Source: Malacoraja senta (Eukaryota). From it: 64,000 nucleotides of DNA. Position 1 is the first letter of the stretch, and each line of letters opens with the position of its first letter. The notes under the pieces were generated by a model. The model did not search any database. It had not been told where the DNA came from and saw only the letters and a program-made list of their open reading frames with translations. The position numbers were made by a program, and so were the translations under genes. Shown in pieces: positions 1-64,000 of this stretch. The stretch is taken from the NCBI GenBank assembly GCA_038087875.1, contig CM075993.1:4342001-4406000 (forward strand), read 5' to 3'.

Positions 1-1532
1 CCCTTCGGCCCAACTTGCCCTGCCACGTCTATACTAGTCTGCCTGCATTTGGCCCTTGTCCCTCTAAACACACGGAGAGCAGCTGAAGGTTCTCCTCAAG
101 GGTCCAAGGCTGTGGCAGAGGCTGTGGTAGACATAAAATGCTGGAGAAACTCAGCGGGTGAGGCAGCATCTATGGAGAGAAGGAATTGTCCTGTGTGTCG
201 GTCGTGACTGGGGTGGGGGAAGAGTGATCCACAGGTGGTCCTGATCTGAGGAGCACGGGGGGGGGGGGAGGAGGAGGTGAAGTGGGGGTGCAGTTTTGAG
301 TGGTGAGGAAATCAAGAGGGGTAGGGTTCAGCGGGAAGTAGGGCGAAGACTGGAAACTGGGGCACAGGTAGAGAAACTGAGGGAGAAACTAATTAAAAAA
401 GGAATTGGGGTAAAGGATGTGAGGATGGGGAACAAAGGAAAAGCCAGAGGCCAAGACTGTCTGTCTGTCTGCAGAATGACACAAAATGCTGGAAAAACTC
501 GGCAGGTCAGGCAGATGATGGAGCACATGAATAGGTGATTTTTTTTTGTTGGATTTTTTAAATTTTAAAATAGGTGCAGGAGGAGGCCATTTGGCCCTTC
601 GAGCCAGCACCGCCATTCATTGTGATCATGGCTGATCATCCACAATCAGTACCCCGTTCCTGCCTTCTCCCCATATCCCTTGATTCCGCTAGCCCCTAGA
701 GCTCTATCTAACTCTTTTTTAAATTCATCCAGTGAATTGGCCTCTACTGCCTTCTGTGGCAGAGAATTCCACAAATTCATGACTTTTCAGGATGGGAGCC
801 ATCTTCAAGAGAGAGTTAGATTTAGCTCTTGGGGCAAAGGGAATCAAGGGATATGGGGAAAAAGCTGGAACGGGTTACTGATTTTGGATGATCATATTGA
901 ATGGCGGTGCTGTCTCGAAGGGCCGAATGGCCTACTCCTGCACCTATTTTCTATGTTTCTATGTTTCAGACTGATGTCTGTCTACACCCATGTATGTGGT
1001 CAGAGTGCATCAGTATGTGCTTGGCATGTGTGTATCCATGCAGGTGTGTGCTAAGACGGGTTGCCCATCATCTTGGAAACATAGGCGCAAAATGCTGGAG
1101 TAACTCAGCGGGACAGGCAGCATCTCTGGAGAGAAGGAATGGGTGACGTTTCGGGTCGAGACCCTTCAGGCCATCGGTCTGAAGATGGGCCTCGACCGGA
1201 AATGTCACCCATTCCTTCTCTCCAGAGATGCTGCCTGTCCCGCTGGGTCACGCCAGCATTTTGTGTCCATCTTCGATGTAAACCAGCATCTGCAGTTCCT
1301 TCCTACACACCTTGGAAACGTACATCCCTCTCCCTCCCAAGACCGCAGCGCACTCTGTGTTAAAAGGAATCGCAAAGGAGAATCTTCCACGCCACAGAAC
1401 TGGAGAGGAATCGACTGTTTGCCCTGCCATCCCCTGTACAATCTGGTCCTTGTGTGAGCAGGTGGCAGTGTGCTGTCATGGGTTAACTACTGCGTTTGTG
1501 CAGGTGTGACCACTTGGTTGTTGCACGAGGGA

Positions 1533-1563
1533 TCAATTATCTGAATTGGAAGAACTTTTGTTC
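1533..1563 (-). CDS. nrg4: Probable terminal coding exon of the nrg4-like gene (RNKSSSNSDN*)
   Basis: Acceptor aaactttaattacag in non-repetitive sequence. The phase-2 join gives a short cytoplasmic tail ending in TGA. Not confirmed by recognisable homology. Confidence 0.45.
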
Positions 1564-1736
1564 CTGTAATTAAAGTTTCTAATTATATTCATTAAATTTC
1601 TTTTATAACTGAAAGATCTAAAATAAATGCATGCAAACTGACAATTTATCGCTGCCTTTTCTCGCTGTATAAAATTGCATACTGGTGTTAACACAAGAAT
1701 ATGATTATTTCCCAAAAATAAGAAAATAGATTCACA

Positions 1737-2147
1737 GTGGATTCACTTCTCCGTGGATTGTCACCTTGTCGTGGTGGAGAAGCTTGTGTGGTCCTGAGAT
1801 CCTGAGAGCGATGCCGTCTGGAGCTATGCTCCTGGTAGGGTCACCCATGGCGGTACCCATGACAAAGAGCAATCCAACCAAGACCTCAACGGTGGAACAG
1901 GCGGAGGACGATGGCTGACCTTACAACGGCTGGGAAGGCGGTTGAAGGCTGCAGCAGAAAAGGTTCTCCGGTAGTCTTGGACTCCATGCCACTGGATCCT
2001 GACCCAGATCTGTCAAGGACCGTGGGGTGGCTGTCTGTGCACCAGTCTCCCCACGTTAAACAAAGTCACGCACAGGCGTCCTCCATATAGGGAATAGCAC
2101 CCTGGAGACACCCATGGTCAGCCATGACCGAAGGGGGCCTAAGAAGA
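1737..2147 (+). mobile_element. Short non-autonomous RTE/Expander-like retroelement
   Basis: The 5' sequence gtcaccttgtcgtggtggag...ctcctggtagggtcaccca resembles RTE/Expander 5' UTRs. It has an (AAG)n tail and a 9-bp direct repeat agattcaca at 1728-1736 and 2148-2156. Confidence 0.65.
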
Positions 2148-2808
2148 AGATTCACATACACTGATTGAATTAGTGATAAATCCCGAGGAAGGAACTGTAG
2201 ACGCTGGTTTAAATCAACAAAGAAGGGTCCTGTCCCGAAACGTCACCTATTCCTTTTCTCCAGAGATGTTGTCTGACCTGCTGGGTTACTCCAGTTTTTT
2301 GTGTCTGTCTTTCGTGATAAATCCTGCAGTTTGCAAGTGAGAAGGAATAGTTTACGTAAAGGTCGGTTGAGTTTGCTGGAGAATTTGTTCCTTTCACAGG
2401 CTGATTATTTACAGTGGGAACTAGGCTGTGCAATAGGAAGTCTGGATTTTATCAACAGAGTATATATAAGCAGGGAAGTCGTGCTTTGTAGAGCATTAGC
2501 TCAGAATCAACTGCGATATTGTTTAATCCTGATGGCCATTTTATAGGCAAGATGTAAAGACGTTAAAGAGGGACAGAAATGATTTACAAAAGAAAGGACT
2601 AGACTTCGATTTGATGGACATTTATCACATGCTGAAAGATGTGGATGTAGTGGATAATGGGAGGCTTGAACTAAACACAGAGCTGAGGAAATCAGTGGGT
2701 CAGGCAGCTGCGGTGGAGAGCGTGGACCGGACATGCCTTTTCGGGTCTAGACACAAAATGCTGGGGTAACTCAGCGGGGACAGGCAGCATCTCTGGAGAG
2801 AAGGAATG

Positions 2809-2842
2809 GGTGACGTTTCGGGTCGAGACCCTTCTTCAGACC
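2809..2842 (-). ncRNA. Minimal hammerhead ribozyme motif (sense to the nrg4-like transcript)
   Basis: Reverse complement reads ggt-CTGAAGAAGGGTCTCGACCCGAAACGTC-acc, with a 3-bp helix I. Confidence 0.65.
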
Positions 2843-3889: not shown

Positions 3890-4089
3890 NNNNNNNNNNN
3901 NNNNNNNNNNNNNNNNNNNNNNNNNNNNNNNNNNNNNNNNNNNNNNNNNNNNNNNNNNNNNNNNNNNNNNNNNNNNNNNNNNNNNNNNNNNNNNNNNNNN
4001 NNNNNNNNNNNNNNNNNNNNNNNNNNNNNNNNNNNNNNNNNNNNNNNNNNNNNNNNNNNNNNNNNNNNNNNNNNNNNNNNNNNNNNNNN
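3890..4089. other. Assembly gap (200 N)
   Basis: N run adjoining a CR1 fragment. Confidence 1.
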
Positions 4090-6817
4090 CTACGAAACTG
4101 CACGTCTTTGGATGTGGGAGGAAATCAGAGCGCCCGAAGGAAGCCCCCGCCGTCGCAGGAAGAACGTGCAAACTCCACAAAGTCAGCATTGAATCTGTGT
4201 CGCTGGCCAGTGAGGCAGCAGCTCTACAACCTGTGGCACTGTAATGGAGAATCTAGAACTGCCCACGATTGTCCAAAGTATTGGGAGCTTGCTGTGTACA
4301 ACCTGGATGTACTGCTCCCTATATTACAACAGTGATTACACCATAGAGTTATACAGCGTGGAAAAGGCCCTTCAGCCCAACTTGCCCATGCTGACCAACA
4401 TGCCCCATCTTCCTGGGTTTGATATCCTTCTGAACCTCTCCGATTCATGTACCTGTCTAAATGTTTCTTAAATGCTGCAGGAGTACCTGCCTCAACCACC
4501 TCCTCTGACAGCTCGTTCCATACACCCGCCACCCTTTGTGTAAAAATGTTACCCCTCAGGTTCCTATTAAATCTTTCGCCCCTCACCTTAAACCCATGTC
4601 CTCTCATTCTCCATTCCTCTGGGCGAAAGACACTGTGCGTTTGCCTCAGCTATTCCTCTCATGATTTTGTCTACCTCTATAAGATCATCCTTCATCCTCC
4701 TGCGCTCCGAGGAATAAAGTCGCAGTCTGCTCAACCGCAAGCCCTCGAGTCTTGGCAACATCCTCGTAAATCAACATCACTGCGTATTATTTTGATAAGC
4801 CAGCCTTTATCTGGAGATCTTGAAAGACATTAGGAATGTACACCCTGTCACACACCCAGATAAACAGATTATGAAGGGCAAAATACCAGCCAAAGTTGTA
4901 ATTTTTGTCCAGTGATCTAGCAAAATATGTCTGCACCATATCTGCATGATCTAACATGGACTATTGCAGCTACATGTGGAGGTGGACGAGAGTTGGGAAC
5001 ACCTTTATCACCACAGCAAATGTTTCTTGCCTTTGGAAGACTTGGTAGAGCATTAAAGATCAAGGCAGATCATTTTGCCTCATTTCTTGCATTTCCTTGA
5101 TTTAGACTGAGGCCATGTCACCGGAGCAGAATTAGACCATTCGGCCCATCGAGTCTACTCCGCCATTCAAACATGGCTGATCTACCTTTCCACACTCAAC
5201 CCCATTCTCCTGCTTTCTCCCCATAACCTTTGACGCCCTTACTAATCAAGAACCTGTCAAACTCCGCTTGTAAAAATACCCACTGACTTGGACTTCACAG
5301 CCATCTGTGGCAATGAATTCCACCACCCTCTGACTAAAGAAATTCCTCCTCGTCTCCTTTCCAAAGGTGTGGGAAGGAACTGCAGATGCTGGTTTACACC
5401 GAAGATAGACACCAAAAGGCTGGAATAACTCAGTGGGACAGGCAGCATGTCTGGAGAGAAGGAATGGGGTGATGTTTCGGGTCGAGACCCTTCTTCAGAC
5501 TGATTGTAGTAAGGAGTATACCAAAGATAGTGCCATTCACAGACAAAATACAAACTGCTGGAGGGTCTGAATCAGTCTAACGAAGGGGGCAGACTCCTTT
5601 AGACTCCTTTCAAAAGGTACGTCCTTTTACACTGAGGCTGTGCCCTCTGGTCCTAGACTCTCCCCTCATTCACTCTATCCAGGCCTTTCCCTATTTGGTA
5701 AGTGCGAATGAGATCCACCCCAGTTCTTCACACCAGTGAGTACAGGTCCAGAGCTGTTAGACGCTCATTATGTGTTCCACTGAGTTTATGCCAGCTCTCA
5801 GAATAGTCTTATTAATCCCCCACATACACCCGCCTTATTTCTGAAGAAGGTCTCGATCCAAAACGTCACCTATTCACGTTCTGCCGAGTTGCTGCCTGAC
5901 CTGCTGAGTCACTCCAGCACTTTGTGGCTTTTTCTGTAAACCAGCATCTGCAGTTCTGTGTTCCTACATCCATCTGCCTATTTCTTGATGTCTCTTCTCT
6001 CACACGTTCCCGTTAGACAATAGACAATAGGTGCAGGAGGAGGCCATTCGGCCCTTCGAGCCAGCACCGCCGTTCAATATGATCATGGCTGATCATCCCC
6101 AATCAGTACCCCGTTCCTGCCTTCTCCCCATATCCCCTGACTCTGCTATTTTTAAGAGCCCTATCTAGCTCTCTCTTGAAAGCATCCAGAGAACCTGCCT
6201 CTACCGCCCTCTGAGGCAGAGAATTCCACAGATCCGATTCCTTTAACCCGATTTCTCCACCAGACACCTACTCCAATTTAGCAGCCAGTTAACATGCCAA
6301 CATGTCTTATGAATGTAAGGGGTCCTGGCCAGCACCTGGGCAGGTACATAGATAGGAAAGGTTTAGAGGGATATGGGCCAAACACAGGCAAATGGGACTA
6401 GCTTAGATGGGGCATCTTGGATGGTATGGATGAGTTAAGCTGAAGTGCCTGTTTCCATGTTGTATGACTGAGGCTGACAGATTCTTGATTTGAACGGGTG
6501 TCGGGTTATGTGGAGGAGGCAGGAGAATGGGATTTGGAGGCAGTGACCAGCCATGGTTGAATGGCGGAGTAGACTTGAAGGGCAGAATGGCTTAATTCTG
6601 CTCCTTGAACTTTTGATCTCTATGACGTGGTCCTACAGAAAACACTGCACGTAGACAACACACAGATCGTTGGACATGAGAGAAAGCTGCACTACCTGCT
6701 GCACCACTTGCAAGCAGGACAACGTCGTTCCTCTTTCCCCTCCTCCCCAACCCTCTCCCTGGCTTGTCCTTCCCCCTGGAGAAGTCAGATGGCCAGCTGT
6801 AATTCATGTGGGCTCAC

Positions 6818-8733: not shown

Positions 8734-8757
8734 TGGTTCGTTAAGACTGTGACTTAC

Positions 8758-9602: not shown

Positions 9603-9922
9603 CACAAACTCTTTGAATCACTTCCCTCTGGAAGGCGACTCCGGACTGTCAAAGCTGCCACAGCCAGACATAAAAACAGTTTTTATCCACGAGTAGTTGC
9701 TCTACTCAACAGCCAAAAATCTGTAGCCTCCCTTTGATCTGGTATTTTGTTGGTTCACATGCTTGATCAATGGTGTTTTATCATTAATGTCTTATTATTA
9801 TTAATGTTTAGTGTTTTCTGTGTCATTCGTAACTGTCACTGTATGTCATGTTATTACTTGTGGGCGGAGCACCAAGGCAAATTCCTTGTATGTGAATACT
9901 TGGCCAATAAACTTACTTACTT
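9603..9922 (+). mobile_element. Rex1/Babar-like LINE 3' fragment
   Basis: Translation HKLFESLPSGRRLRTVKAATARHKNSFYPRVVALLN (LPSGRR...NSF.P motif), then AATAAA and an (actt)n tail. Confidence 0.8.
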
Positions 9923-11164
9923 AGATGGACACAAAAAGCTGGAGTAACTCAGCGGGACAGGCAGCATCTCTGGAGAAAAGGAATAGGCAACTTTCCGGGC
10001 CGAGACCATTCTTCAGACTGAGAGTCAGGGGAAAGGGAATCGAGAGATATAGACGGTGATACAGAGAGATATAGAACAAATGAATGAAAGATATGCAAAA
10101 AAGTAACGCTGATCAAGGAAAGGGGCCATTGTTAGCTGTGGGCTAGGTGAAAACGAGTTACAGACAATGAGACAAATATGAAATATTTTGTCAATCAAAT
10201 ATGAGAAATATATCAAATATGAACTCCTTCCTGATACTGGGCTGAGCTTCTCAGATCTGTTTCCCTGAGTGGAGGTGTGTGGTGACTCGGAATTGGGAAC
10301 TGCTTACACACTGAAGTTATTTGTGGTAGTTATCGGATTGCCAAAGAGCCCAGTCGAGACATGCTGGAAATGGTTAGAGAGTAATGGAGTGTTATCGTAA
10401 GTGGGTGACGCAGATCATGTTGCTCACATAAGGCACCAAGTGATGGAGTAACTCGGCTGGTCAGGCAGCATCTCTGGAGAACATGGCTAGGTGATATTTT
10501 GGGTCGGGACCCTTCTACAGACTGATTGCAGGGGTGGTGGGGGAAGGAAAGACAGTTCAAAGAGTGCAGGGGCAGGACAAAGCGTGGCAGGTCACAGGTG
10601 AAAACAGATGGTGGGGGGGGGGTGTTTGATGCCTGGGCAAGGGTCAGAGATGAACGCGGGGAGCACGGTGGCGCAGCGGTAGAGTTGCTGCCTTACAGCG
10701 CCAGAGCTGCAGGTTCCATCCCGACTACGGGTGCTGTCTGCACGGAGTTTGTACGTTCTCCCCGTGACCCGCGTGGGTTTTTGTGCGCGTTCTTCGGTTT
10801 TCTCCCGCACTCCAAAGACGTACAGGTTTGTAGGTCAATCAGCTTGGGTTTGCATACTGGTAGAAGTGTAAGTTGTCCCTAGTGTGTGTAGGCTTGTGTT
10901 CATGTGTAAACCGGAGATAGACACAAATTGCTGGAGTAACTCAGCGGGTTGCTCAACTCAGCAACAGAGAAAGCTTTTCATTGTGTTCAAGAAGGAACAG
11001 CAGATGCTGGAAAGTCGAAGGTACACAAAAATGCTGGAGAAACTCAGCGGGTGCAGCGGCATCTATGGAGCGAAGGAAACAGGCAACGTTTCGGGCCGAA
11101 ACCCTTCTTCAGACTCTCATTGTCTTTTCATTGTGCTTGTAACGGAGCACTAGACTGTGACACA

Positions 11165-17330: not shown

Positions 17331-17461
17331 TTCAAGAGAAGGAATGGGTGACGCTTTGAGTCGAGACCCTTCATCACCCAAAACGTCACCCATTCCTTAT
17401 CTCCAGTGATGTGGCTTGTCCCGCCGAGTTACTCCAGCATTTTGTGCCTAACATTCCCTAC

Positions 17462-17474: not shown

Positions 17475-18355
17475 ATCACTGCAGTCCTTTCGAACCGGGA
17501 TCTGACCTAAAAGGAATAAAAGTGTGATTTTAGTAGGTTTCAGGAACGGGGATTGTTGGCTTTTGCCATGTTGGGCTCATTAAATCAGCTGGTGTCAGAA
17601 GAAGATGCTGATTTACAAAAAAAATACCCCGCGCGTGGTGACGGTTTAACGAAAGCTCGCCGACTGAGAGCGACGGACTCTGTACATCAGAGGCACAGAC
17701 AACACCTGGTGGAAAAAAGCACGGGAAACATTGAGCAAAGTCGCAAGCAAGGCTGAGTTCACCCCGTGGACCGGGCAATAGAAACATCGAAACATAGACA
17801 AAAGGTGCAGGAGTAGGCCATTCGGCACTTCGAGCCAGCACCGCCATTCTTTATGATCATGGCTGATCATCCAAAATCAGTTTGAGAAGGAACTGCAGAT
17901 GCTGGAAAATCGAAGGTAGACAGAAATGCTGGAGAAACTCAGCGGGTGAGGCAGCATCTATGGAGCGAAGGAAATAGGCAACGTTTCGGGTCGAAACCCA
18001 AGGGTTTCGACCCGAAACGTTGCCTATTTCCTTGGGTTTCGACCCGAAACTTTGCCTATTTCATTCGCTCCATAGATGCTGCCTCACCCGCTGAGTTTCT
18101 TCAGCATTCTTGTCCACATCCAAAATCAGTTCTCCGTTCCTGCTTTCTACCCCGTATCCCTTGATTTCTTTATCCATGAGAGCTAAATCCAACTCTCTCT
18201 TGAAAACATCCAGCGAATTGGCCTCCACTGCCTTCCGTGGTAGAGAATTCCACAGATTCACAACTCTCTGGGTGAAAATGTTTTTCCTCATCCCGGTCCT
18301 AATCCGAGAGGAGGTGGAGGGAGGTGCTGCAGTAAGATGAACCGGGGGGTCTTAC

Positions 18356-19576: not shown

Positions 19577-19610
19577 AGTCTGAAGAAGGGTCTCGACCCG
19601 AAACGTCAAC
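19577..19610 (+). ncRNA. Minimal hammerhead ribozyme motif
   Basis: CTGAAGAAGGGTCTCGACCCGAAACGTC intact at 19580-19607. Confidence 0.65.
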
Positions 19611-30575: not shown

Positions 30576-31762
30576 CCATAGTGTACAGCACAGGAGCAGG
30601 CCCTTCAGCCAATCGAGTTTGTGCCGGCCATGATGCCAATCCAAATCTAATCCCATCTTTAGTCAGAGGGTGGTGAATCTGTGGGATTCATTGCCGCATA
30701 CGGCTGTGGAGACCAAGTCATTGTGTATTTTTAAAGCGGAGATTGCTAGGTTCTTGATTAGTAAGGCCGTCAAAGGTTACGGGGAGAGGGCAGGAGAATG
30801 GGATTGAGAGGGAAAAATAGATCAGCCATGACCAAAATGGTGGAGCAGACAGGATGGGCTGAATGGCCAATTTTGCCCCTCTGTCTTATGATCTATTGAC
30901 CTCTCTCTTAAACAGTCCATATTTTTGCCCTACATCATCAATCTTTCTGGAAGAGGCTCTACCACACTTAAATGGGAACCTGAGGGGCAACTTATCCATG
31001 CAGAGGGTGTTAGGTGTATGGAGCAGGCTGCCAGAGGAGGTAATTGAGGCAAGTGCAATAACAACATTTTAAAAGACATTTGGACAGCTACATGGATAGA
31101 AAAGATTTGGATGGGTATGGACCAAACACAGGCACATGGGACTAGCTTAGATGGGACAAAGTTTAACAATAAGGTGCAGGACATATGAAATGAGCTGCTG
31201 GAGGAGGTAGTTGAAGCAGCTACAATAACAACATTTAAAAGACATTCGGACAGGTACATGGATAGGAAAGGTTTAGAGGGATGTGGGCCAAATGTGGGCA
31301 AGGGAAACTATCTCAGATGGGGCATCTTGGTCGGAATAGACGAGTTGGGATGAAGGGCCTTTTTCCTTGATATACGAGTCCACGACCCTAAACCCGACTC
31401 TAAAGCTTCTTCCCCACAGCCATCAGGCTATTAAACACAACGAATAAGCTATGAGTTCTGAACTGCAAAAGACTATATTATTATTTGTTATTTCCACTAT
31501 ATTTGTTATTTATTGAACGTTTTCTTGTTTTTTCCCCGTTTTATACAATGTTTACATATTCACATCTTCTGTTGTGCTGCAGCAAGTAAGAATTTCATTG
31601 CCCCGTCCGGGACATATGACAATAAAACACTCTTAATTCTTGACCTGATACCTACAACTAGCCTGGCTCCAATTTTAAGATGATATCCAACTGTTCATTG
31701 ATTTCTCCATTAGAGGAAATAGTTTCTCCAATAGATTCAAACTAGCCATGGCCAACATTCTT

Positions 31763-32013
31763 CTAACTTCGTAACCCTTACATTCCCTCTCTCTCCATCC
31801 CTCCCCCACCCACGTCACACCACCTTCTCGTTCTCACCCAGCAAACAGCTAACAATGGCCTGTTTCCTTTATCATCGTTACTTTTTTGCATATCTTTCAT
31901 TCTTTCCCCTGACCATCAGTCTGAAGAATGGTCTCGACCCAAAACGTCACCCATTCCTTCTATATTGTAGATGCTGCCTATCCCGCTGAGTTACTCCAGC
32001 ATTTTGTGTCTAT
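31763..32013 (+). mobile_element. Penelope-like 3' UTR and terminal repeat fragment
   Basis: Colinear with 34870-35112, with a degenerate hammerhead core at 31921. Confidence 0.75.
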
Positions 32014-34571
32014 TTCCCGGCATACTTTGGTCCATTTTGTAATCCTGAACTCCATTTATCACAGCAAGAATCTTTCTCGTTCCTCTTCGAAACTTTCTTG
32101 ATTCATTCCCCTCCCACGAGCATTAATTAAGCACGGAGCTCCCTGCAAGACTTCCTGTCGAATTGTTTAACCTGTTTGCCACAACCTAAACTCTTCATCC
32201 ACAATTCCCCGCTGTAATTCTCCCTATGCAAATAAGTCCCTTAATTGAATAGACTATTTGCATAAATGGCTAATTTGCATACAAATGCGTTTGGTCATGG
32301 TCTGACTTGGATTTTTTTTGTGTGACTCTTGTGCTCATCAAATGACAGATGACAACACTGGGACATGCAACACTCTCTATTTTGGGCAGCCACCATCCAT
32401 ATTAAGCACTCCAAGGTCAGCAGGAACATTAACGTTGCCTCCACTCTCTCTCATCGCTTTGACCCAGGTCCATTAGAAAGGGTTTGATAGATATTTCTAC
32501 AGCACCTGTAACGACCTCAAGACTTTCCAAAGAGCTTTACTGCCAAGGAAGTCTAGACACAGTTATATTGTCGGAAATGCAACAGCACGGACATATAAAT
32601 AGCAATGAGATAATGATCAAATCATCACTTGGTCTTTTTAAGTATTTATTGCTCTCAGGTAGTGTCCATATTGTAATTTATGTATTTTTTGTCTGCTTTC
32701 GTTCTGAATGCGTGGGTTTGGTTAGGGGGCTTCTGGAATCTGAATTTCCCTGAGGGATCAATAATGTATTTATTATTATTATTATTTATTATTATTACCT
32801 CCTGAGAAATATTGGCCTGAACACTAATGGGAGCTCCCCTGTTATAGTTCAGGTAGGATTACGGGATCCGGAGAGGGTGCTGGTTTAACAACCTCTTAAG
32901 TTATAGGGAAGATAGACACAAAAAGCTGGAGTAACGCAGCGGGACAGGCAGCTTCTCTAGTCTGAAGAAGGGTTTCGACCCGAAATGTCACCCATTCCTT
33001 CTCTCCAGAGATGCTGCCTGTCCCGCCGAGTCTTCGGTTTAAACCAGCATCTGCAGTTCCATCCTACGCATAAATGATAGGATCAGAACTAGGCCATTCG
33101 GCCCATCAAGTCTACTCCACCATTCAATGATGGCTGATCTATCCTTCCCTCCTAACCCCATTCTCCTGCTTTCTCCCCTTAACCCCTGACACCCTAACTA
33201 AGCAAGAATCTATCTTTCTCTGCTGAAGTCTAGCATGCCGAGTCTTGTGAGGGAACAAAAAAATGACAAAATGATATATTGGAACTGAAACATTCATTGC
33301 TTTAGAACTTTGTTCCTGTTATATTCTTCAGGAATAGCCACTTAGGTAAGTGATGAAGAGTCCTGATGGCTGAGATGATCGGTAAACTAGACAAAGCATT
33401 GATCCATACAGAGCAGGAGGCTTTCACTTGCTGTTCACTCGCCTTAAAAATATACAATGACTTGGCCTCCACAGCCATTTGTGGCAATGAATTCCTCAGG
33501 TTCACCACCCTCTGGCTAAAGAAATTCCTCCTCGTCTCTGGGTTAGGCAGCATGTCTGGAGAACATGGATAGGTGATGTTTCGGGTCAGGACCTACCACC
33601 AATCAAAGTTTTGGCCTATTGGTGTTACTTCAGCATTGAATGTCTTTCAAAGTTTAAAGGACATGTGCGGGGTAGGTTTTTTACAGAGGGTGTTGGGTGC
33701 CTGGAATATAGTTCCAAGGGTGGTGGTGGAGGGAGATACAATAGTGGTGTTTAAAAGGCTTTCAGATAGGCACATTGATGTCAGGATATGGACATCATGA
33801 ATACTGTGTTGATATGGATCACATGCAGGCAGATGAGATTAGCTTAACTTGGCATCGTATTTGGCACGGACATTGTGGGCCGAAGGGCCTCTTCCTGTGC
33901 TGTACTGTTCTATGTCGTATACTTTGAGATTTAGACTTTAGACTTTAGAGATACAGCTCGGCACACTATCCTACACACGAGGGACAATTTTACAACTTAC
34001 CAAAGCCAATGATCCTGTACGTCTTTGGAGTGCGTGAGGAAAGTTGAGCACCTGGAAAAAAACCCACGCGGTCACGGGGGGAGCGTACAAACTCCATACA
34101 GACAGCACCGGTGGTCAGGATCAAACCCGGGTCTCTGGTGCTGTGAGGCAGTAACTCTACTGCTGCGCCACTGTGCCGCACTGGACACATATATATATAT
34201 ATCAATATATATATATATATATATATATATCAATGCAAGTTGAATTCAGTGCACGAGTTTTAATTGACACGGTATTCATTTTTGGACTTTCTGAGAGATT
34301 GTGGTGAGTATGTGCAGCATCTGGTGATTTCTTTTATAAGGTTGGGTTGCAACACCTCAGAAGTTGGGTGTGAAAGTTTTCCGCTACATGGAGCCATCTG
34401 CAGTGATGAGACTTCTGTTGAACAGAAAGGTGGCTAATAGGAGTAGTCACTGACGACACTAATTAATAGGTGTTTCGTAAAGTGGGGAAATGCAATGCTC
34501 TGAAAAACAGAGCCTTGACACATTGAACAACCAGGCAGTAGCTACGCAGATAGTGGGGAAAGTTGATAACT

Positions 34572-35112
34572 CGCACCTCCTCCAACCTCGTCTACTGTAT
34601 CCGCTGTTCAAGATGTGGACTCTTATACATCGGCGAGACCAAACGTAGACTAGGCGATCGTTTCGCTGAACACCTTCGCTCAGTCTCCCTGGACCCACCT
34701 GACCTCCCGGCCGCTAAACACTTTCATTCCCATTCCCATTCCCACACTGACCTTTCTGTCAAGGCCTCCTCCATTGTCAGAGTGAGGCTAAACGCAAACT
34801 GGAGGAACAGCATTTCATATTTCACTTGGGCAGCTTACAACCCAGTGGTATGAATTTTGATTTCTCTCACTTCAAGTAACCCCTGCATTCCCTCTCTCTC
34901 CATCCCTCCCCCACCCAGGTCGCACCAGCTTCTCATTCTCAGCTAACAAAGGCCTGTTTCCTTTATCACAGATACTTTTTTGCATTTGTCCTATATCTCT
35001 CTACATCACCATCTCGTTTTCTTTCCCCTCGATTCCCAGTCTGAAGAAGGGGTCTCAGCCCGAAACGTCACCCATTCCTTCTCTCCACAGATGCTGCCTG
35101 TCCCGCTGAGTT
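34572..35112 (+). mobile_element. Penelope-like retroelement 3' fragment: GIY-YIG endonuclease remnant, 3' UTR and terminal repeat
   Basis: Translation TSSNLVYCIRCSRCGLLYIGETKRRLGDRFAEHLRSV has the VY..CxxC..YIGET..R...RF.EH signature of PLE GIY-YIG domains, frameshifted downstream. It runs directly into the hammerhead-bearing repeat at 35041. Confidence 0.9.
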
Positions 35113-35435
35113 ACATAGAAACATAGAAACATAGAAATTAGGTGCAGGAGTAGGCCATTCGGCCCTTCGAGCCTGCACCGCCATTCAATATGATCATGGC
35201 TGATCAACCAACTCAGTATCCCGTACCTGCCTTCTCTCCATACCCTCTGATCCCTTTAGCCACAAGGGCCACATCTAACTCCCTCTTAAATATAGCCAAT
35301 GAACTGGCCTCGACTACCCTCTGTGGCAGAGAGTTCCAGAGATTCACCACTCTCTGTGTGAAAAAAGTTCTTCTCATCTCGGTTTTAAAGGATTTCCCCC
35401 TTATCCTTAAGCTGTGACCCCTTGTCCTGGACTTC
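35113..35435 (-). mobile_element. CR1 LINE 3' fragment inserted into the Penelope terminal repeat
   Basis: The Penelope repeat is interrupted at gctgagttac and resumes at about 35436-35485. Confidence 0.9.
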
Positions 35436-36018: not shown

Positions 36019-36052
36019 GGTGACGTTTCGGGTCGAGACCCTTCTTCAGACT
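36019..36052 (-). ncRNA. Minimal hammerhead ribozyme motif
   Basis: Intact core at 36022-36049 within a Penelope terminal-repeat fragment (about 35950-36200). Confidence 0.65.
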
Positions 36053-36326
36053 GAGAGTCAAGGGAAAGGGAGATACAGAGATAAGGAAGGGTAATGCGTG
36101 AAAACGAAACATCAAAGGGGATGGAGGTCAGGGAAAATGTGGAATAGATCATCGTTAGCTAGGGGAAGGTGATGACGAAGCGTATAGTGATCAAATTTAA
36201 TTGGGGGGGCAGTCAGACTCTCTGACTCCATGGGTTTCCTTTGGGTGCTCTGGTTTCTTCCCACGTGCCAAAGACTTGCAGATAAGTAGGTTAATTGATC
36301 ACTGTATATGGACCCTAGTGTGTAGG

Positions 36327-48655: not shown

Positions 48656-50387
48656 ATGGCGGTGCTGGCTCGAAGGGCCAAATGGCCTACACCTGCACCT
48701 ATTGTCTATTGTCTAAGATGTTGGTAAGGCCGCACTTGGTGCGTTGTGTTCACTTTTAGTCACCCTATTCATACGGTCATAAGTGAAAGGAGTAGAGTCA
48801 GGCCATTCGGCCCATCAAGTCTACTCCGCCATTCAATCATGGCAGATCCATCTCTCCCTCCTAACCTCATTCTCCTGCCTTCTCCCCATAACTTCTGACA
48901 CCTGGTAGACAAAAATGCTGGAGAAACTCAGCGGGTGTAGCAGCATCTATGGAGCGAAAAATATTTCCTTCGCTCCATAGATGCTGCTGCACCCGCTGAG
49001 TTTCCCCAGCATTTTTGTCTACCTTCGATTTTCCAACATCTGCAGTTCCTTCTTAAACACTTCTGACACCTGTACTGATCAAGAATCTATCTATCTCTGC
49101 CTTAAAAATATCCACTGACTTGGCCTCCACAGCCATCAGTGACAAAGAATTCCATAGATTCACCACCCTGTGACTAAAGAAAATTCTCCTCATCTCCTTA
49201 CTAAAAGAACATTCTCTAATTCTGAGGCTATGACCTCTCGTCCTCAACTCTCCCACTCGTGGAAATATAGGAAAGTATAGTGCCATTGGAAAGGTCCCAT
49301 TAAAATAGTAAAAGTGTGGAGAAGATATACAAGGATGTTGGCAGGATTCGAGTGCCTGAGCTATAGGGAGAGGTTGGGCTGGCCAGGACTCCATTCCTTG
49401 GAGCGCAGGAGGCTAAGGGGTGATCTTACAGAGATGTATAAAGTAATGAGCGGAATTGATAGGATAGATGGACAGTCTTTCATGTAGGATTAGGGAATCA
49501 TGAACAAGGGGACATATTTAGGATGAGAGGGGCAAGATTTAGTACGAACCTGAGGGACAAATTTGTCACAGATATATGGAGCAGGTATATGGAACGAGCT
49601 GTCAGAGGAGATAGTTGAGTCAGCTACCATAACAACATTTTGAAGACATTTGGACATGGATAGGATAGGTTTAAAGGATGATGGGTCAAACGTGGACAAA
49701 TGGGACTAGCTTAGATGGGGCATCTTGGTCAGCATGGGAGGTTGTGCCTGTTTTCCTGCTGTAAGACCCTATGGCTCCAATTTAGTCTCGTTGTGGTAAT
49801 CATGAAAGTACCAGATTACATAAAAGGTGCCGCTAGCTAATGTCCTTCAGCCAAGGGAATCTGCCATCCACCACTTCTAGCACTGTGTTCCAGGCACCCA
49901 CCACTCTCTGTGTAAAAGAACTTTCTCCGCATGCCTCTTATCAATTCCCCCGCCTGACCTTAAAGCTGTGCCCACTACCCTTTGACCTCTCCACCCTGAC
50001 TGTCTACCCCATCTATCTCTCTCATGGTTTTATATACGTCCATATACTCCCCTCGACCTCCGGTGCCCCAGAGAAAACAATCCCAGTTTGTCCAACCTCT
50101 CCTGATAGCTGGCGCCCTCTAATCCAGGCAGCGTTCTGGGAAACCTCTCCACATTGTTTGTGTAATGGGACGACCAGAAATATGCTCAACAAAGTCTTGC
50201 CTTCGAGTTTGGAATTTCTTTCCTGGATCTTAGTTTAGTTTTGTTTCGAGATACAGCGCGGAAACAGGCCCACCAGGTCCTTGCCGACCAGCGATCCCCG
50301 CACATGAACACTACCCTACACCCACTAGGGACAATTTTTACTTTTAGCAAGCCAATTAACCTACAAACTTGTACATCTCAGCATTAA

Positions 50388-50777: not shown

Positions 50778-53700
50778 TTTGCTCCAAAATTCCGTTCTGT
50801 TGACATCAAAGGAATTAATTTCAGAGAGAAAGTGATTTTAATGATGAAGAATGATGATCAGTTGCTAGGAAGATGTTTGGATATTTCTTTTGGAATAGTC
50901 ACTTTCCCCTATGTTAAGGAGGGAAATATCGATGGTATATCCTGTTTTAACTAACTAGTCTGAATATCAGTGCCTCCTTCAACATAAGTCAGGAACCTTT
51001 TTAGAGAAGGTAGGATTAGCTACTTTAAGAAGATGATACGTTCATCAGGAACTCTTCATCAGAGCCTCTCGTGAAGAGAATTTCACATCGAGAACCTTTA
51101 CTGAAGAACTAACGTCGCAGACGGAAATGTCCCAAGGACATTTGTAGCAGATGGAGTCACTCCATCAGAGTCACTTTTAAACAGAACCTCTTATTATCAG
51201 CGTAGGAAGGAACTGCAGATGTTGGTTGGCACCTGTGATAGACGCAAATGCTGGAGTGACTCGGCGGGTCAGGCAGCATCTCTGGAGAAAAGGAATGGGT
51301 GATGCTTCAGATCGAGACCCTTCTTCAGACTGAGAGCGGACTGACTGAGAGGCTCTCAGTCAGAAGAACTAGCCCCAACCCAAAACATCACCTATCCATT
51401 TTCTCCAGCGATGCTGCCTGACCCACTCTGTTTCTCCAGCACTTTGTGTCAATTCTCTTTTCAAGTGAGGATGTCTAAATACTGGGACTCCATTTAAATC
51501 ACGACTAATGGTTTAAGCAGCTGAACGCACCTTTTGAGAAGTGGGGTGATGGTGAGAATGAGTAATGAGCGATGATTTGATGTAAAAAAAATGTTGATGG
51601 TTATTCTGTTTAATATTAAAAATGCACCAGGATTTAGTTTCTTTAAAGCCATTTCGTGTCTGTATTCCTACCGACCCCGATGAAGGCGATTCTCAGGGAT
51701 ATTATTCATCAATGAGATGCCAGCTCCAAGGATAGACACAAAGTGCCGGAGTAACTCAGCAGGTCAGCCAGCATCTGTGGAGAAAACCAAGAGGTGACTT
51801 TTTGGGTTGGGACCCTTCTTCAGACTGATTGTACGGGTGGGGAGGGGGACTGGAATCAAGAAGAGACCGGGACAACTCATGGCTGGCAACTTTGTCTACA
51901 TCTGTTACCGGCACTGATTTGTGCTTTCAGTTTCCCCCCCACAGTGTGAAGAAGGGTCCCGACCCAAAACGTCACCTAACCATTTTCTCCAGAGATGCTG
52001 CCTGACCCGCTGGGTTACTCCAGCATTTTGGTGTAAACCAGCATCTGCCGTTCCTTATTATTACTCATCTCCAAGGAGTTTTGTTCGGAAAACCGTGCCG
52101 TACCAGGAAAGATTGATGATTGAGGTTCGGCCATAAGATTTTGACTGTTACTCCCTGTTTTCCGTGTCCATTCCCACCCTAGTGCAGTGCAACATTTAAA
52201 ACACATTTGGACAGGTACATGGCTAGGAAAGGTTTGGAGGCATATGGGACAAATGCAGGCAGGTGGGGCTAGTATAGATGGGACACCTTGGTTGCTGTGG
52301 GCAAGTTGGTCAAAGGGCCTGTCTCCATGCTGTGTGACTCCGTAACTCTTAGTGCATGAGTTTTATCTTTCTCTGGGATGTTGGGGGGGGGGTCTCCTGC
52401 CTGTGGGATCGCACCCCGTGAGTTACTACGTTCCACAGGCTGGGAAGGAGGGTAAAAAGACATGGTACAGCAGAAGGTTTAAGAAGGAACTGCAGATACT
52501 GGAAAATCGAAGGAAGACAAAAATGCTGGAAAAACTCAGCGGGTGAGGCAGCATCTATGAAGCGAAGGAAATAGGCAACGTTTCGGGTCGAGACCCTTCT
52601 TCAGACTGCGGAAGGTCGTACGTTCTTGCCTCCACAGATGCTGCCTGGTTCCTCCAGCACTTTGCACTTTGCCCTTTGCCAACAGCAAGCGGAGTTCACC
52701 ATCTATTCAGAGTGACTCAAAATGAATCTAAAGTGGTTGTTATCACATTTCACTCCGGAAAACATTGATTTTTAAACCCCATAGCACTTGTTAAAAAACA
52801 GCATTGGCTGATTATATTTCTTGGCAATTGTGTCACTTTTTAAAACACAGCATCTCAATATCTTCACAGCCAATGAAGGACTTTAACAAAGTCAATATTA
52901 TAATGCAGGAAAAATGTGGTATATTTATTAATGCAGCACTCCATTCTATATTTTATTGATGAATAAGTTTCTATTATTAATACAGTCGGTACATTATATT
53001 AGAAGGTTCAATAGTGATGAAAAGTAATACAATCTGTACTAGAAAGTACATTGCCTAACTTGGAACTAACTCATAAAAAATAATCAACATTTAGTCTGTT
53101 TAGCATTGATTTTAATTAGTAAGGACAGTAAAACTATTCACTGTGTGTTGTGTATGAAATGAACTGCAGATGTTGGTTTAAACCGAAGATAGACACAAAA
53201 TGCTGGAGTAACTCAGCGGGACAGGCAGCATCTCTGGAGAGAAGGAATAGGTGAGGTTTCGGATCGGGTCGGGCCTGAAGAAGGGTCTCGACCCGAAATG
53301 TCACCCATTCCATCTCTCCAGAGATGCTGCCTGTCCCGCTGAGATACTCCAGCATTTTGTGTCTATATCCACCGTGTCTTAATTGAATTGGCATCAAGAC
53401 TTTCTCCTACCCCTCTTTGTTTTCCCTGTCCCCACCCCCCACTCTGGTGAGCACATATTTCTCCCAACGTCTCCCACCTCCCCAGCCGACCTGCTCCTTT
53501 CCCCCCCTCCCCTGTACTGTCGTCACCCATACCCGAGGCCCATATTCCCCTTTTACCACCCCCTCCCCTTTCCCTTCCCCCATCCACTTCCAAAGACATC
53601 CCTTGATGTATTCAAGAGAGAGTTAGATATAGCTCTTAGGGCTAACAGAATCAAGGGCTATGGGGAAAAAGCAGGAACGGGGTACTGATTTTGGATGATC

Positions 53701-56332: not shown

Positions 56333-56366
56333 AGTCTGAAGAAGGGTCTCGACCCGAAACGTCACC
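56333..56366 (+). ncRNA. Minimal hammerhead ribozyme motif in the Penelope terminal repeat
   Basis: agt-CTGAAGA-a-GGGT ctcg ACCC-GAAAC-GTC-acc: CUGANGA and GAAA boxes, a 4-bp helix II, a palindromic ACGU helix III and a GUC cleavage triplet. Confidence 0.7.
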
Positions 56367-60436: not shown

Positions 60437-61060
60437 AATAGAAACATAGAAACATAGAAAATAGGTGCAGGAGCAGGCCATTCGGCCCTTCGAGCCTGCA
60501 CCGCCATTTGATATGATCATGGCTGATCATCCAACTCAGTATCCCATCCCTGCCTTCTCTCCATACCCCCTGATCCCTTTAGCCACAAGGGCCACATCTA
60601 ACTCCCTCTTAAATATAGCCAATGAACTGGCCTCAACTACCTTCTGTGGCAGAGAATTCCAGAGATTCACCACTCTCTGTGTAAAAAATGATTTCCTCAT
60701 CTCGGTCCTAAAAGTCTTCCCTCTTATCCTTAAACTGTGACCCCTAGTTCTGGACTTCCCCAACATCGGGAATAATCTTCCTGCATCTAGCCTGTCCAAC
60801 CCCTTAAGAATTTTGTAAGTTTCTATAAGATCCCCCCTCAGTCTTCTGAATTCCAACGTGTACAAGCCGAGTCTATCCAGTCTTTCCTCATATGAAAGTC
60901 CTGCCATCCCAGGAATCAGTCTGGTGAACCTTCTCTGTACTCCCTCTATGGCAAGAATGTATTTCCTCAGATTAGGAGACCAAAACTGGAGGCAATACTC
61001 CAGGTGTGGTCTCACCAAGACCCTGTACAACTGCAGTAGAACCTCCCTGCTCTTATACTC
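60437..61060 (-). mobile_element. CR1 LINE 3' fragment
   Basis: ORF with LVRPHLEYC.QFWSP...QRRFTRLIPG motifs and a (atagaaac)n tail. Confidence 0.95.
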
Positions 61061-61094
61061 AATGACAAAGAATGACAAAGAAGTATTACACCAG

Positions 61095-61420
61095 GGTGGC
61101 ATAGGGCACTGCTCATAGAGCTGCTGCCTCACTGCGTCAGTGATCCGACTTAGACCCTGACTTCAGGTGCTTTGTGTCTGTGTGGAGTTTGCACGCTCTC
61201 CAAGTGACTGCGTGGGTTTCCTCCAGGTGCTCCGGTTTCCTCCCACATCCCAAAGACGTGGGGGTTTGTAGGTTAATTGGCCCTCTTTGTGAATTTCCCC
61301 CTAGTGTGTATGGAGTGGATGAGAAAGTGGGATAACATAGAACGAGTGATCAATAGCTGGTGTGGACTCAGTGGGCCTGTTTTCATGCTGCATCTCTAAA
61401 CTAAGCGATACTAAACTAAA
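61095..61420 (+). mobile_element. Older, diverged HE1-like SINE variant
   Basis: V-domain core plus the variant segment gagtggatgagaaagtgggataacatagaac, also seen near 7230, 29680 and 56010. Confidence 0.7.
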
Positions 61421-61886: not shown

Positions 61887-62139
61887 TTACCCCAATGATT
61901 ATGCTGTTGTACCTCTGTTCTAAGTCCCAAAGGATCTAGTCTACACCTCAGACCCCTAACAATCAAAACATTCTGCTTTCTGCTTTCCAAACTGGAGTCA
62001 ATGTTTGCCCGACCCTCAGAGTTACTCCAGCACTTTGTGTCTTTCCTTGGTAAACCAGCATCCGCAGTCCCTTATTACTACGTGCTCTTGGAACCGCTCT
62101 CTATGTCTGATAATAACCAGATCTTCAGCTTTCAATGAG

Positions 62140-62940
62140 GGCGATGGAAGGGGGTAAGAAGTGCCTCGGATGCTCATCTGCTCTTCTGCGAGATAGTGTC
62201 ATGAGATTTATCTCACCATGCTGAGAGATTTAAGGGGCTGTCCCACTTGGGCGACCTAATTGGCGAGTTTAGAAGAGTTTAGGAGAGTTTGAAAAAATGT
62301 CATGTTGAAGACCTCCTTCCACTATGTAGAAAACCTCCTTTGACCTCCTTCGACTATGTTGAAGACCAGTACGACTAACTCCGGGAAAATTGGACACCGA
62401 ATAGTGGAGAGTGACGACGACCTCCTTCGACCTCCTTCGACCTCCTTCGACCTCCCTTCGACTATGATGTACACTATCTACGACTACCTTCGACTACCCT
62501 CGATTACCTACGACTAACATGCCGACCTACTACGACCTACTGCGACTAAACCTACAAGTAAAAAAAGTATAGATTTTTTCATGGTGACCTTTTTTTACTC
62601 GCGGGCATTTTTCAACATGGTTGAAAAATACGCCGCGACCTAGCCGAGGCCTCGAGTACACGGGGACCACTCTCGAGTATGAAGGAGAGTTACAAAGACC
62701 TCCCACGACCTCGTGTCGACCATGCTGCGAGTATGAGTCGAGGGCAAACTCGCCAGAACTCGCGGATTAGGTCGCCCAAGTGGGACAGCCCCTTTAGTTA
62801 AGCATCCATTGCAAACAGAACAGAACGCCCTCAGTACTGCGTTCAGTATCAGCGTAGTTTTTGTGTCCAAGTATCTGGAGTGAGACTTGAACCTACAACC
62901 TTCTGACTCAGAAGTAAGTGTGTGCCTCCACTGAAGCATT
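62140..62940 (-). mobile_element. Ancient Deu-domain (SacSINE1-like) SINE split by the MITE at 62233-62793
   Basis: Reverse-complement head cagtggaggcacacacttacttctgagtcagaaggttgtaggttcaagtctcactccaga...cagtactgaggg, with Deu-like catgacactatctcgcagaagagcag on the other side of the MITE. Confidence 0.55.
62233..62793. mobile_element. PIF/Harbinger-like MITE inserted in an old Deu-type SINE
   Basis: TIRs aggggctgtcccacttgggcgacctaat; TTA TSD; internal (cgacctcctt)n and cgacta repeats. Confidence 0.8.
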
Positions 62941-63355
62941 TAAACAAGCGTTTAATATGACATAAACTGCCGCTCTGATAATCCAGGGAATTTGCTAACA
63001 ATTCACATTAATGTGTACAGGTTGTTCCATTCCTTTATAACAGGCAATGATATAAAATCCTCTCTCAGCAACATAAGATTATGTGAGTCATGGGACCTCA
63101 GTACTTGCTCTTCTATAGTTTGTTATCTGTCACTTAACAATATCTAACTACCCCCGCAAACATTGCTTTATGTTCCATTATAAATGATACAAAAGTTTAC
63201 ACATCTCATTGTCCAGGGTTTCTTGAGGTGGTAAAGGCACACGTTGTGAGAGTCTTGACTTCACTTTTTAGCCGTGGATGAGTTTGCACAGAAGCAAGGG
63301 AGGATACTGAAAGTTGCGGCTCTGAACGTCAAGGTCCCTGGATTTTGTAGACTAA

Positions 63356-63667
63356 TGGGCCTGTCCCGCTTACGCGACTTTTTCGGCGACTTGCCGGCAC
63401 CCGTCATAGTTGCAGCAGGTTGATAATCCAGCGGGGACCAGAATAAGGAACGACTCTTTGGTTGACTACTCACGACCATACAGGCTTCACCCCACGACAT
63501 GTCGCCAGGGTGTCGCCTGTATGGTCGTGAGTCGTCTCCTCAGTCGCCCAAAGAGTCGGAGCATTTTTCTGGTCGCCGCTGGGTTGTTGAAAACTTTCGC
63601 CGACCTGCAACGACCTATGATGGGTGCCAGCAGTCGCCGAAAAAGTCACGTAAGTGGGACAGGCCCA
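63356..63667. mobile_element. PIF/Harbinger-like MITE
   Basis: TIRs tgggcctgtcccgcttacgcgactttttcggcgact / agtcgccgaaaaagtcacgtaagtgggacaggccca. Confidence 0.75.
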
Positions 63668-63711
63668 TTGGCACTGGTGTGTTCCTACCCCTTGTCGCAA
63701 CCCCTTGTCGC

Positions 63712-64000
63712 AAAGGAATGGGTGACGTTTCGGGTCGAGACCCTTCTTCAGACTGATGTCAGTGGGGAGGGGGAGATACATAGATCAGGAAGTGTAAAGT
63801 GTGAAAGTAGGACAAAGGGTGTGGAGATCAAGGAACATGTCGAATAGATCATTGTTAGCTGGGAGAAGGTAACAACAAAGCAAACAGAAATAAAATGTGG
63901 TCGGAGAAAGTAAGACTGGTCGGAGAACTGGGAAGGGGGAGGGATGGACAGAGAGGGAAAGCAAGGGTTACTTGAAGTTGGAGAAGTCAATATTCATACT
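63712..64000 (-). mobile_element. Penelope-like 3' UTR and terminal repeat (continues beyond the window)
   Basis: Reverse complement matches 34850-35080, including cttcaagtaaccc and the hammerhead core. Confidence 0.8.

What the first reader, a model, noticed from the sequence alone, without database searches (positions are those of the whole stretch)
1179..63751. Window saturated with Penelope-derived minimal hammerhead ribozymes
Seen: a highly repeated ~130-bp unit contains CTGAAGA-A-GGGT(CTCG)ACCC-GAAAC-GTC. Intact or near-intact cores are at 19580, 32962, 35041, 53275 and 56336 (+) and at about 2812, 5472, 11085, 36022, 52577 and 63724 (-), with many decayed copies. Variation fits the fold: the helix II loop is CTCG, TTCG or CCCG, one copy has a U-G wobble in the stem, and GTC-a versus GTT-g keeps an NUH triplet and a base that can pair in helix I. 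At 34572-35112 the unit is continuous with a GIY-YIG remnant, tying it to a Penelope-like element. Established: PLE terminal repeats in many animals carry minimal hammerheads whose palindromic helix III (here ACGU) needs dimerisation. Inference: these copies may self-cleave, possibly in trans between transcripts. The extra A after CUGAAGA and the 2-3 bp helix I are non-canonical.
Basis: partly seen in the sequence, partly recalled or inferred. Interest (0 to 1): 0.8.

Follow-up and report, generated by a model that had tools for sequence, protein, structure and literature searches.

The report
Penelope-end debris carrying minimal hammerheads
About 11% of this skate-like DNA window is made of short, mutating ends of a Penelope-type retrotransposon that carry the minimal hammerhead-ribozyme motif already described for such elements; the scattered copies show no sign of selection on the motif and were likely copied from RNA that had not cut itself.

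Summary
Observation confirmed. A profile finds 70 fragments (42 loci, 11% of the window) of a ~100-nt unit with an optional ~35-nt tail. At 34.6-35.1 kb it follows a GIY-YIG remnant; relatives in skates, rays and sharks carry the Neptune/Nematis-type Cys linker. The motif matches the published minimal PLE hammerhead consensus. The 'extra A' and short helix I are normal for that class, so they are not anomalies.

The functional inference is weak. Only 6 of 32 spanning copies are intact, the core mutates like its flank (6.6% vs 8.0%, p=0.38), G12 is lost in 15 of 51, and no compensatory change is seen. 38 of 70 fragments sit in head-to-head pairs predicted to bury the core in a hairpin.

One addition: copy 5' ends pile up just before C3 (22) rather than at the cleavage site (5), in the window and in contigs of four runs. 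Templates were therefore likely uncleaved and began at an initiator-like TCAGTCT, with Bridge/DPE-like motifs at exact spacing inside the hammerhead. A separate CPEB3-like HDV ribozyme element lies at 46.7-46.9 kb. Verdict: new member of a known kind.

The parts
34566..34879 (+). Broken 3' end of a PLE ORF: GIY-YIG endonuclease with CxxC inside the GIY-YIG core, one frame change, stop at 34877-34879
34880..35037 (+). Pyrimidine-rich 3' UTR / upstream part of the pLTR
35038..35114 (+). Hammerhead unit continuous with the ORF remnant; helix II broken, 3' end cut off
36022..36049 (-). Intact minimal hammerhead core, C3 at 36049, C17 at 36022; in a UTR-bearing copy 35950-36233
36048..36054 (-). 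Initiator-like TCAGTCT (also a CAG 3' splice-site look-alike) where copy 5' ends pile up; A at 36052 would be +1
56336..56363 (+). Intact core in a head-to-head insertion 56260-56455
2812..2839 (-). Intact core in a head-to-head insertion 2748-2944; predicted fully buried in the hairpin
11085..11112 (-). Intact core, subfamily B (TTCG loop, U-G in helix II, GTT-g); unit 10989-11116 with a 13-match target-site duplication
52577..52604 (-). Intact core, subfamily B, head-to-head with an older fragment
63724..63751 (-). Intact core in a UTR-bearing, 3'-cut copy 63712-63999
19580..19607 (+). Core intact but helix I reduced to one pair
32962..32989 (+). Near-intact core, C15.2>T; head-to-head insertion 32900-33070
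53275..53302 (+). Near-intact core, C15.2>T and helix I 5' strand lost; head-to-head insertion 53156-53370
5471..5498 (-). Near-intact core, G16.2>A; unit with tail 5366-5503
1077..1309 (.). Head-to-head insertion, one arm with tail, flanked by a target-site duplication
17880..18122 (.). Head-to-head subfamily B insertion whose arms meet inside helix II; 15-match target-site duplication
48900..49058 (.). Head-to-head subfamily B insertion without the core; 14-match target-site duplication
9913..10156 (-). UTR-bearing copy, core mutated
31760..32019 (+). UTR-bearing copy, G12 mutated
123..63999 (.). Span holding all 70 fragments (42 loci) of the unit

Best explanation
These are 5'-truncated ends of a Penelope-like retrotransposon (likely Neptune type) that carry the known minimal type I hammerhead motif; the dispersed copies mutate without detectable selection on the core and were likely reverse-transcribed from RNA that had not self-cleaved. 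Mechanism. (1) Shown: each insertion holds ~100 nt of the repeat end, often a second inverted arm, an optional ~35-nt tail on one arm and, in 7 of 25 units tested, a 10-15-match target-site duplication. (2) Inferred from the anole element (PMC11167929): the element's protein nicks DNA and starts reverse transcription inside the RNA at the two sites that bound the tail. (3) Inferred here: synthesis runs through the intact hammerhead to the RNA's 5' end, a few bases before C3, likely the transcription start, then switches template or folds back (often at helix II or at short shared letters) to make the inverted arm. (4) Inferred: any cleavage activity belongs to the source elements' transcript, would need two copies pairing through the ACGU palindrome and probably the element's protein, and is not needed to make these copies. 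After insertion the copies are debris.
For: PLE link: GIY-YIG hit; closest proteins from skates, rays and sharks, 62-77% identity among the top 12; relatives have RT, a CX(3-4)CxxC linker and the CCHH motif, the Neptune/Nematis mark (PMC8557442). Motif fits the published consensus position by position. Architecture: 19 head-to-head pairs against 4 tail-to-tail and 5 head-to-tail neighbours (read), the arrangement described for PLEs. Neutral decay: non-CpG core 27/411 versus flank 262/3281, p=0.38; CpG core 6/35 versus 22/134, p=1.0; G12>A in 15 of 51. In contigs of four runs G12 is changed in 13.5-16.5% of summed depth, a flank CpG in 9-13.5%. Uncleaved template: 24 of 70 fragments begin in the 11 positions ending at C3 (22 after dropping two that continue into their own subfamily's UTR) against 5 in the 11 positions around the cut, p=0.0015. 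14 of the 15 joints listed for the runs have one side at 36049-36054. The anole study found unprocessed RNA the main substrate and no reads ending at the cut.
Against: No cleavage or RNA-end data: all 24 runs offered were contigs. The two 11-nt windows were chosen after seeing the data, and local alignment ends are blurred by a few bases. In one search the reference was one subfamily, so the loose ends at 36054 partly mark where other subfamilies' UTRs diverge; 389 joints and 1,066 loose ends were not shown. One listed joint does fall at C17 (one contig). Subfamilies were assigned by eye, and in the oldest the majority letter at G12 is already decayed. At subfamily level the 28-nt motif changes less than the next 21 nt (6 versus 9 variable columns) and U2.1 always keeps a partner (U-A 9, U-G 4, 0 broken), which fits constraint on source elements. 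No full-length element was available, so the clade rests on relatives.
Confidence: 0.78

Rival explanations
1. The dispersed intact copies are working ribozymes that cut host or repeat transcripts as dimers, in cis or in trans.
For: 6 copies are intact; ACGU is self-complementary; the motif class cleaves weakly as dimers or trimers in vitro (PMC4209133) and with protein help in the anole element. Contigs show head-to-tail joints from 36050-36054 back to 35953-35960, so tandem pairs exist in these genomes.
Against: No selection on the core. None of the 5 head-to-tail neighbours in the window has two intact cores. Predicted helix II probability is at most 0.005 in 5 of 6 inverted loci and 0.001 in the lone subfamily A unit; a rival hairpin pairs the core with the sequence 3' of the cut. 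The double-hammerhead fold of two 38-mers is 15 kcal/mol above their best fold, though this model ignores core contacts. Only 1 of 9 Xenopus dimer elements cleaved.
Confidence: 0.1
2. The motif is kept in the source elements partly or mainly as DNA: an internal RNA polymerase II core promoter (initiator at +1, Bridge/MTE at +18, DPE at +28) that overlaps the hammerhead, so every short copy carries its own promoter and is the strong-stop product of that transcript.
For: With the A of TCAGT as +1 the unit matches the mammalian initiator 7/7 (6/7 in one of four subfamily consensuses), Bridge part I 5/5 at +18 and DPE 5/6 at +28 in all four, MTE 8-9/12 (consensus and positions from PMC4581360). 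Of 1,060 initiator matches elsewhere in the window, 1 has both Bridge I and DPE at 5/6 or better. +1 is where copy ends pile up. The CG at +18/+19 is kept in all four consensuses while +16/+17 vary. D. virilis Penelope has an internal promoter with a DPE.
Against: Motifs were tested after the fact, several at once; Bridge part II scores only 2-3/4. The matched letters are largely hammerhead letters. A zebra shark gene model reads through the same motif in the same register but with Arg where the skate frame has Asp, which would break Bridge I (P0006; one copy, protein level only). Published PLE hammerheads vary in spacing. No transcription start was mapped.
Confidence: 0.25
3. The boundary before C3 is a 3' splice site of a PLE 5' UTR intron, and the short copies come from spliced RNA.
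For: A pyrimidine tract (55-95% C+T) ends in CAG just before the core in 9 of 10 long copies. In D. virilis the intron ends at helix I.
Against: No shared first exon upstream of the short copies: the only shared upstream sequences were inverted arms and UTR. Several copies keep 2-7 bases upstream of the AG, and two copies with target-site duplications (37091-37183, 10989-11116) begin at or next to the boundary with no exon.
Confidence: 0.12
4. The unit is an independent non-autonomous family (non-LTR retrozyme) that spreads through circular RNA made by hammerhead cleavage.
For: High copy number; retrozymes are reported to derive from pLTRs and to occur in one cartilaginous fish; head-to-tail joints in contigs.
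Against: No tandem array with two intact cores in the window; arms and junctions differ between insertions; ends are not permuted around the cut site.
Confidence: 0.07

Closest known systems
Minimal type I hammerheads of metazoan PLE terminal repeats (Cervera and de la Pena 2014, PMC4209133)
   Same: CUGANGA plus one unpaired base, G10.1-C11.1, GAAA, palindromic 15.2/16.2 with no loop III, NUH, short helix I; mostly single truncated copies; second copies on the opposite strand nearby.
   Different: Helix II is 4 bp and helix I 2 bp, at the short end of the listed range. No cartilaginous fish is among the species in the supplement parts read.
Neptune/Nematis-type EN+ PLEs (PMC8557442)
   Same: C-terminal GIY-YIG with CCHH, Cys linker in relatives, 5' truncation, inverted upstream copy, 30-40-bp tail at one end.
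   Different: Here mostly ~100-250-bp ends with no ORF; only one ORF remnant in the window.
Anole Poseidon PAc (Frangieh et al. 2024, PMC11167929)
   Same: Tail bounded by two 3' ends; copies include the whole hammerhead, as expected if uncut RNA is the template.
   Different: Other clade; there the ORF starts inside the hammerhead, here no long ATG-initiated frame was seen in the unit.
Non-LTR retrozymes (bioRxiv 2026.07.22.740005)
   Same: pLTR-derived, non-coding, type I hammerhead, high copy number.
   Different: Defined by tandem units that each have an intact hammerhead; none in this window.
L1Tc Pr77/L1TcRz dual promoter and ribozyme (PMC3383444, abstract start only)
   Same: Analogy for the rival reading: one short 5' sequence serving as internal promoter and ribozyme.
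   Different: HDV-like ribozyme in a trypanosome LINE, tested by experiment; here only motif matches.

Membership tests
PLE minimal type I hammerhead | Core CUGANGA and GAAA with NUH | tested here: met
   Present in subfamily consensuses A and B and in 12 of 32 spanning copies with no core change
PLE minimal type I hammerhead | Unpaired base between A9 and helix II; G10.1-C11.1 pair | tested here: met
   consensus
PLE minimal type I hammerhead | Palindromic helix III without a loop | tested here: met
   ACGU in all four subfamily consensuses
PLE minimal type I hammerhead | Helix I of 2 bp or more closing the core | tested here: met
   U-A or U-G plus G-C; third pair absent
PLE minimal type I hammerhead | Compensatory base changes in the helices | tested here: inconclusive
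   0 of 8 pairs with a change on both sides in 13 copies; copies are too close and decay neutrally, so the test has little power
PLE minimal type I hammerhead | Self-cleavage at NUH as a dimer or with protein | not testable with these tools
   No raw RNA reads offered
Penelope-like element (EN+) | C-terminal GIY-YIG endonuclease with CCHH next to the terminal repeat | tested here: met
Penelope-like element (EN+) | Inverted 5'-truncated copy, optional 30-40-bp tail, target-site duplications | tested here: met
Penelope-like element (EN+) | PLE-type RT in the same ORF | tested here: inconclusive
   Not in the window; present upstream of the same endonuclease in relatives P0005-P0007
Neptune/Nematis clades | CX2-5CxxC linker before the GIY-YIG | tested here: inconclusive
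   Remnant starts after the linker; 38 of 80 relatives show it, including the two best hits
Non-LTR retrozyme | At least two consecutive tandem units with complete hammerheads | tested here: not met
   0 of 5 head-to-tail neighbours in the window; genome-wide not tested
Inr/Bridge/DPE core promoter | Exact spacing of downstream elements from the initiator | tested here: met
   Inr, Bridge I and DPE 5/6 at the stated positions; Bridge II not met
Inr/Bridge/DPE core promoter | Capped transcription start at +1 | not testable with these tools
   No CAGE or raw reads

The most novel reading that the evidence does not exclude
The skate PLE hammerhead is dual-coded: as DNA it is an internal Pol II core promoter (initiator 3 bases before C3, Bridge/MTE in helix II, DPE over helix III and the cut site), and as RNA a self-inhibited, protein-dependent ribozyme. 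The flood of ~100-nt copies would then be strong-stop cDNAs that record the transcription start and prove that PLE templates are uncut, which would explain both why the motif persists and why its copies are so numerous.
Probability: 0.22. Interest if true: 0.65.

Novelty: new member of a known kind. Interest (0 to 1): 0.33.

Why it matters
PLE hammerheads are known, and thousands per genome have been reported, so the motif itself is ordinary. Their function is still open: one model has them cut the precursor RNA, while in vitro work on the anole element found cutting unnecessary. A genome this rich in short copies is a fossil record of template ends, and here it favours uncut templates. If the promoter overlap holds, it gives a second reason for the motif's persistence that can be tested with CAGE and a reporter.

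Tried and rejected
No whole genome is held, so no genome-wide copy set. Rfam: no hammerhead family hit; the miRNA hits are the inverted pairs and simple repeats. A pattern from the unit's 3' part found nothing in metagenome or viral contigs, and one for the HDV-like element nothing in metagenome contigs. No RNA holder listed as such among public runs; all were contigs, so expression and RNA ends were not assessed. Two runs guessed to be RNA show the same G12 loss as the others, but the tool marks them as possibly DNA, so this says little. Covariation: none. A protein search with the unit's open frame gave one unnamed hit and no cross-species series. 123 of 192 non-repeat open frames of 45 aa or more were scanned against Pfam with no hit, so no host gene or transcribed strand could be assigned. 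RT stalling at a hairpin was considered for the 5' pile-up and rejected: it predicts ends at the hairpin's 3' side (about 45 nt downstream), where few copies begin. Earlier findings of this scan: none in four look-ups. Lunse et al. on PLE hammerhead dimers was not held; only its title was seen in a reference list.
Full report
Observation. The repeat is real. The core pattern matches 12 places with at most one mismatch and none in 100 shuffles. A profile built from 13 window copies finds 70 fragments in 42 loci, 7,127 bp or 11.1% of the window. The unit is about 100 nt from TCAGT to its first 3' end, with an optional tail of about 35 nt. I sorted the 70 fragments by eye into four subfamilies of 32, 11, 18 and 9.

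What it is. At 34566-34879 a broken frame gives a GIY-YIG hit (E 1.7e-4, just under Pfam's cut-off) and continues through a pyrimidine-rich UTR into the unit. Its best relatives are gene models from Rhinoraja and Leucoraja, then rays and sharks, so the host is probably a skate (inference). Longer relatives hold an RT, a Cys linker and the CCHH-type endonuclease; passages of PMC8557442 give that linker as the mark of the Neptune and Nematis clades. The architecture is that of PLE insertions. Read, there are 19 head-to-head pairs (38 of 70 fragments), 4 tail-to-tail and 5 head-to-tail neighbours, and usually only one arm has the tail. Of 25 PLE units tested, 9 had a flanking duplication of 9 or more matches against 2.3% of 300 random pairs; two of the 9 are artefacts (repeat against repeat, poly-A), leaving 7. 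Passages of PMC3846280 and PMC8557442 describe the same inverted copy, tail and duplication.

The motif against the literature. I read parts 1-2 of 4 of PMC4209133 and parts 1-2 of 3 of its supplement. The consensus there is CUGANGAH, a G-C closed helix II, GAAAN, a palindrome and NUH. The base between 9 and 10.1 is named as a conserved feature, and 2-bp helices I are listed for Culex, Oikopleura and D. virilis. That paper found no activity for a monomer and low activity for dimers and trimers. No cartilaginous fish is in the species list I saw. A 2026 preprint (parts 1-3 of 5 read) reports tandem hammerhead repeats in one unnamed cartilaginous fish; its supplements are closed and may name this family. 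Three paper searches listed no paper on skate PLE hammerheads or on a hammerhead-promoter overlap; the library lacks most subscription journals and repeat databases were not searchable, so the family may already be catalogued.

Are the copies under selection? Against their subfamily consensus, non-CpG core positions differ in 27 of 411 cells and flank positions in 262 of 3,281 (p=0.38); CpG positions in 6 of 35 and 22 of 134 (p=1.0). Positions within 4 nt of an alignment end and gaps were left out. G12 lies in a CpG and reads A in 15 of 51 copies. Contigs from four public runs (6,904 to 338,977 laid per run) show G12 changed in 13.5-16.5% of summed depth; a flank CpG is changed in 9-13.5% in the two large runs. 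These depths are not copy numbers. In 13 aligned copies no pair of the hammerhead shows a change on both sides. In favour of constraint on the source elements, U2.1 keeps a partner in all 13 (U-A 9, U-G 4), and the subfamily consensuses differ at 6 of 28 motif columns, some of them decay in the small old groups, against 9 of the next 21. A zebra shark gene model reads through the motif in the same register with N7 = U (P0006).

Could the copies fold? In 5 of 6 inverted loci the predicted probability of helix II is at most 0.005; in the sixth it is 0.29. In lone subfamily A units a rival hairpin pairs the 5' core with the 20 nt after the cut; in the subfamily B unit helix II reaches 0.30. Helix I is near zero everywhere. 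The double-hammerhead fold of two 38-mers scores -6.1 against -21.1 kcal/mol for the best fold. These models omit core contacts and protein, so they lower the odds without excluding activity.

Where copies begin. If cut RNA were the template, copies would begin at N1.1. Of 70 fragments, 24 begin in the 11 profile positions ending at C3, 20 inside the 5' core or helix II, 10 further upstream, and 5 in the 11 positions around the cut. Two of the 24 continue into their own subfamily's UTR and were dropped: 22 against 5, p=0.0015, with windows chosen after the fact. In the runs, 14 of the 15 listed joints have one side at 36049-36054 (C3 is 36049) and one, in one contig, at C17; 389 more were not shown. 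Depth does not fall going upstream across the cut (34 to 48 million from 36021 to 36029 in X19) and falls to 3 million by 36055, partly because other subfamilies have other UTRs. This agrees with parts 1-2 of 4 of PMC11167929: reverse transcription starts inside the RNA at two sites bounding the tail, unprocessed RNA is the main substrate, the ribozyme cuts only with protein, and no reads end at the cut.

What the boundary is. With the A of TCAGT as +1, the subfamily consensuses match the mammalian initiator (7/7 in three, 6/7 in one), Bridge part I at +18 (5/5 in four), DPE at +28 (5/6 in four) and MTE (8-9/12); Bridge part II is not met (motifs from Table 1 of PMC4581360). One of 1,060 other initiator matches in the window has both Bridge I and DPE at that level. 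This is suggestive but post hoc, and the shark peptide would break Bridge I. The same boundary looks like a 3' splice site, as in D. virilis where an intron ends at helix I, but no common first exon precedes the short copies. Passages of PMC2377424 show an internal promoter with a DPE in D. virilis Penelope.

Verdict. It is a new member of a known kind. The copies behave as decaying debris, and the suggestion that they cut RNA is unsupported, though untested at the bench. The useful addition is the record of template 5' ends just before the core, which favours uncut templates and raises a testable promoter-overlap idea. Interest 0.33. A separate element at 46692-46888 with a CPEB3-like HDV ribozyme may deserve its own follow-up.

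Noticed in passing
window 46692-46888 (-): A ~197-bp non-coding insertion that begins exactly at G1 of an HDV-like ribozyme and is flanked by a 10-bp target-site duplication (9/10 match). Rfam CPEB3_ribozyme scores 32.7 bits against a cut-off of 35, E 3.6e-7. P1 has G1-U plus five pairs, three of them G-C to C-G swaps against the Rfam consensus; P2 7/7, P3 3/3, a possible 2-bp P1.1 and J4/2 GCUAA are present. It is likely a non-autonomous LINE-derived element, and its closeness to the mammalian CPEB3 ribozyme could bear on that ribozyme's origin. Single copy in the window; three paper searches listed no report from cartilaginous fish.
   Followed up: partly
window 17880-18122, 17335-17491, 2748-2944, 53156-53370: Inverted arms often meet inside helix II or at 2-3 shared letters next to the core, which suggests fold-back or template switching at the hammerhead hairpin.
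   Followed up: partly
window 19472-19680, 51199-51471, 52477-52664: Head-to-head pairs whose two arms come from different subfamilies: either switching between different RNAs or insertion next to an older copy.
   Followed up: no
window 5366-5503 (-) and other tailed copies: The tail holds a stretch complementary to the conserved block about 25 nt after the cut site, so tailed RNAs are predicted to form a stem there, a candidate signal for the start of reverse transcription.
   Followed up: no
runs laid on window 35930-36250: Head-to-tail joints from 36050-36054 back to 35953-35960 in 13-29 contigs each in X19, one example in X5 with the tail between: tandem units exist outside this window and would be the best candidates for dimer cleavage.
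   Followed up: no
window 40368-40970, 41116-41577, 48278-48712, 56557-57012, 60536-61162: Several 3' ends of a LINE ORF that looks CR1-like (name recalled, not tested); about 51% of the window is self-repeated.
   Followed up: no
window 3890-4089 and 47961-48160: Two assembly gaps of 200 N.
   Followed up: no
proteins P0001, P0002, P0014: Host gene models from skates and rays that end in this PLE endonuclease; they may be annotation read-through or exon capture.
   Followed up: no
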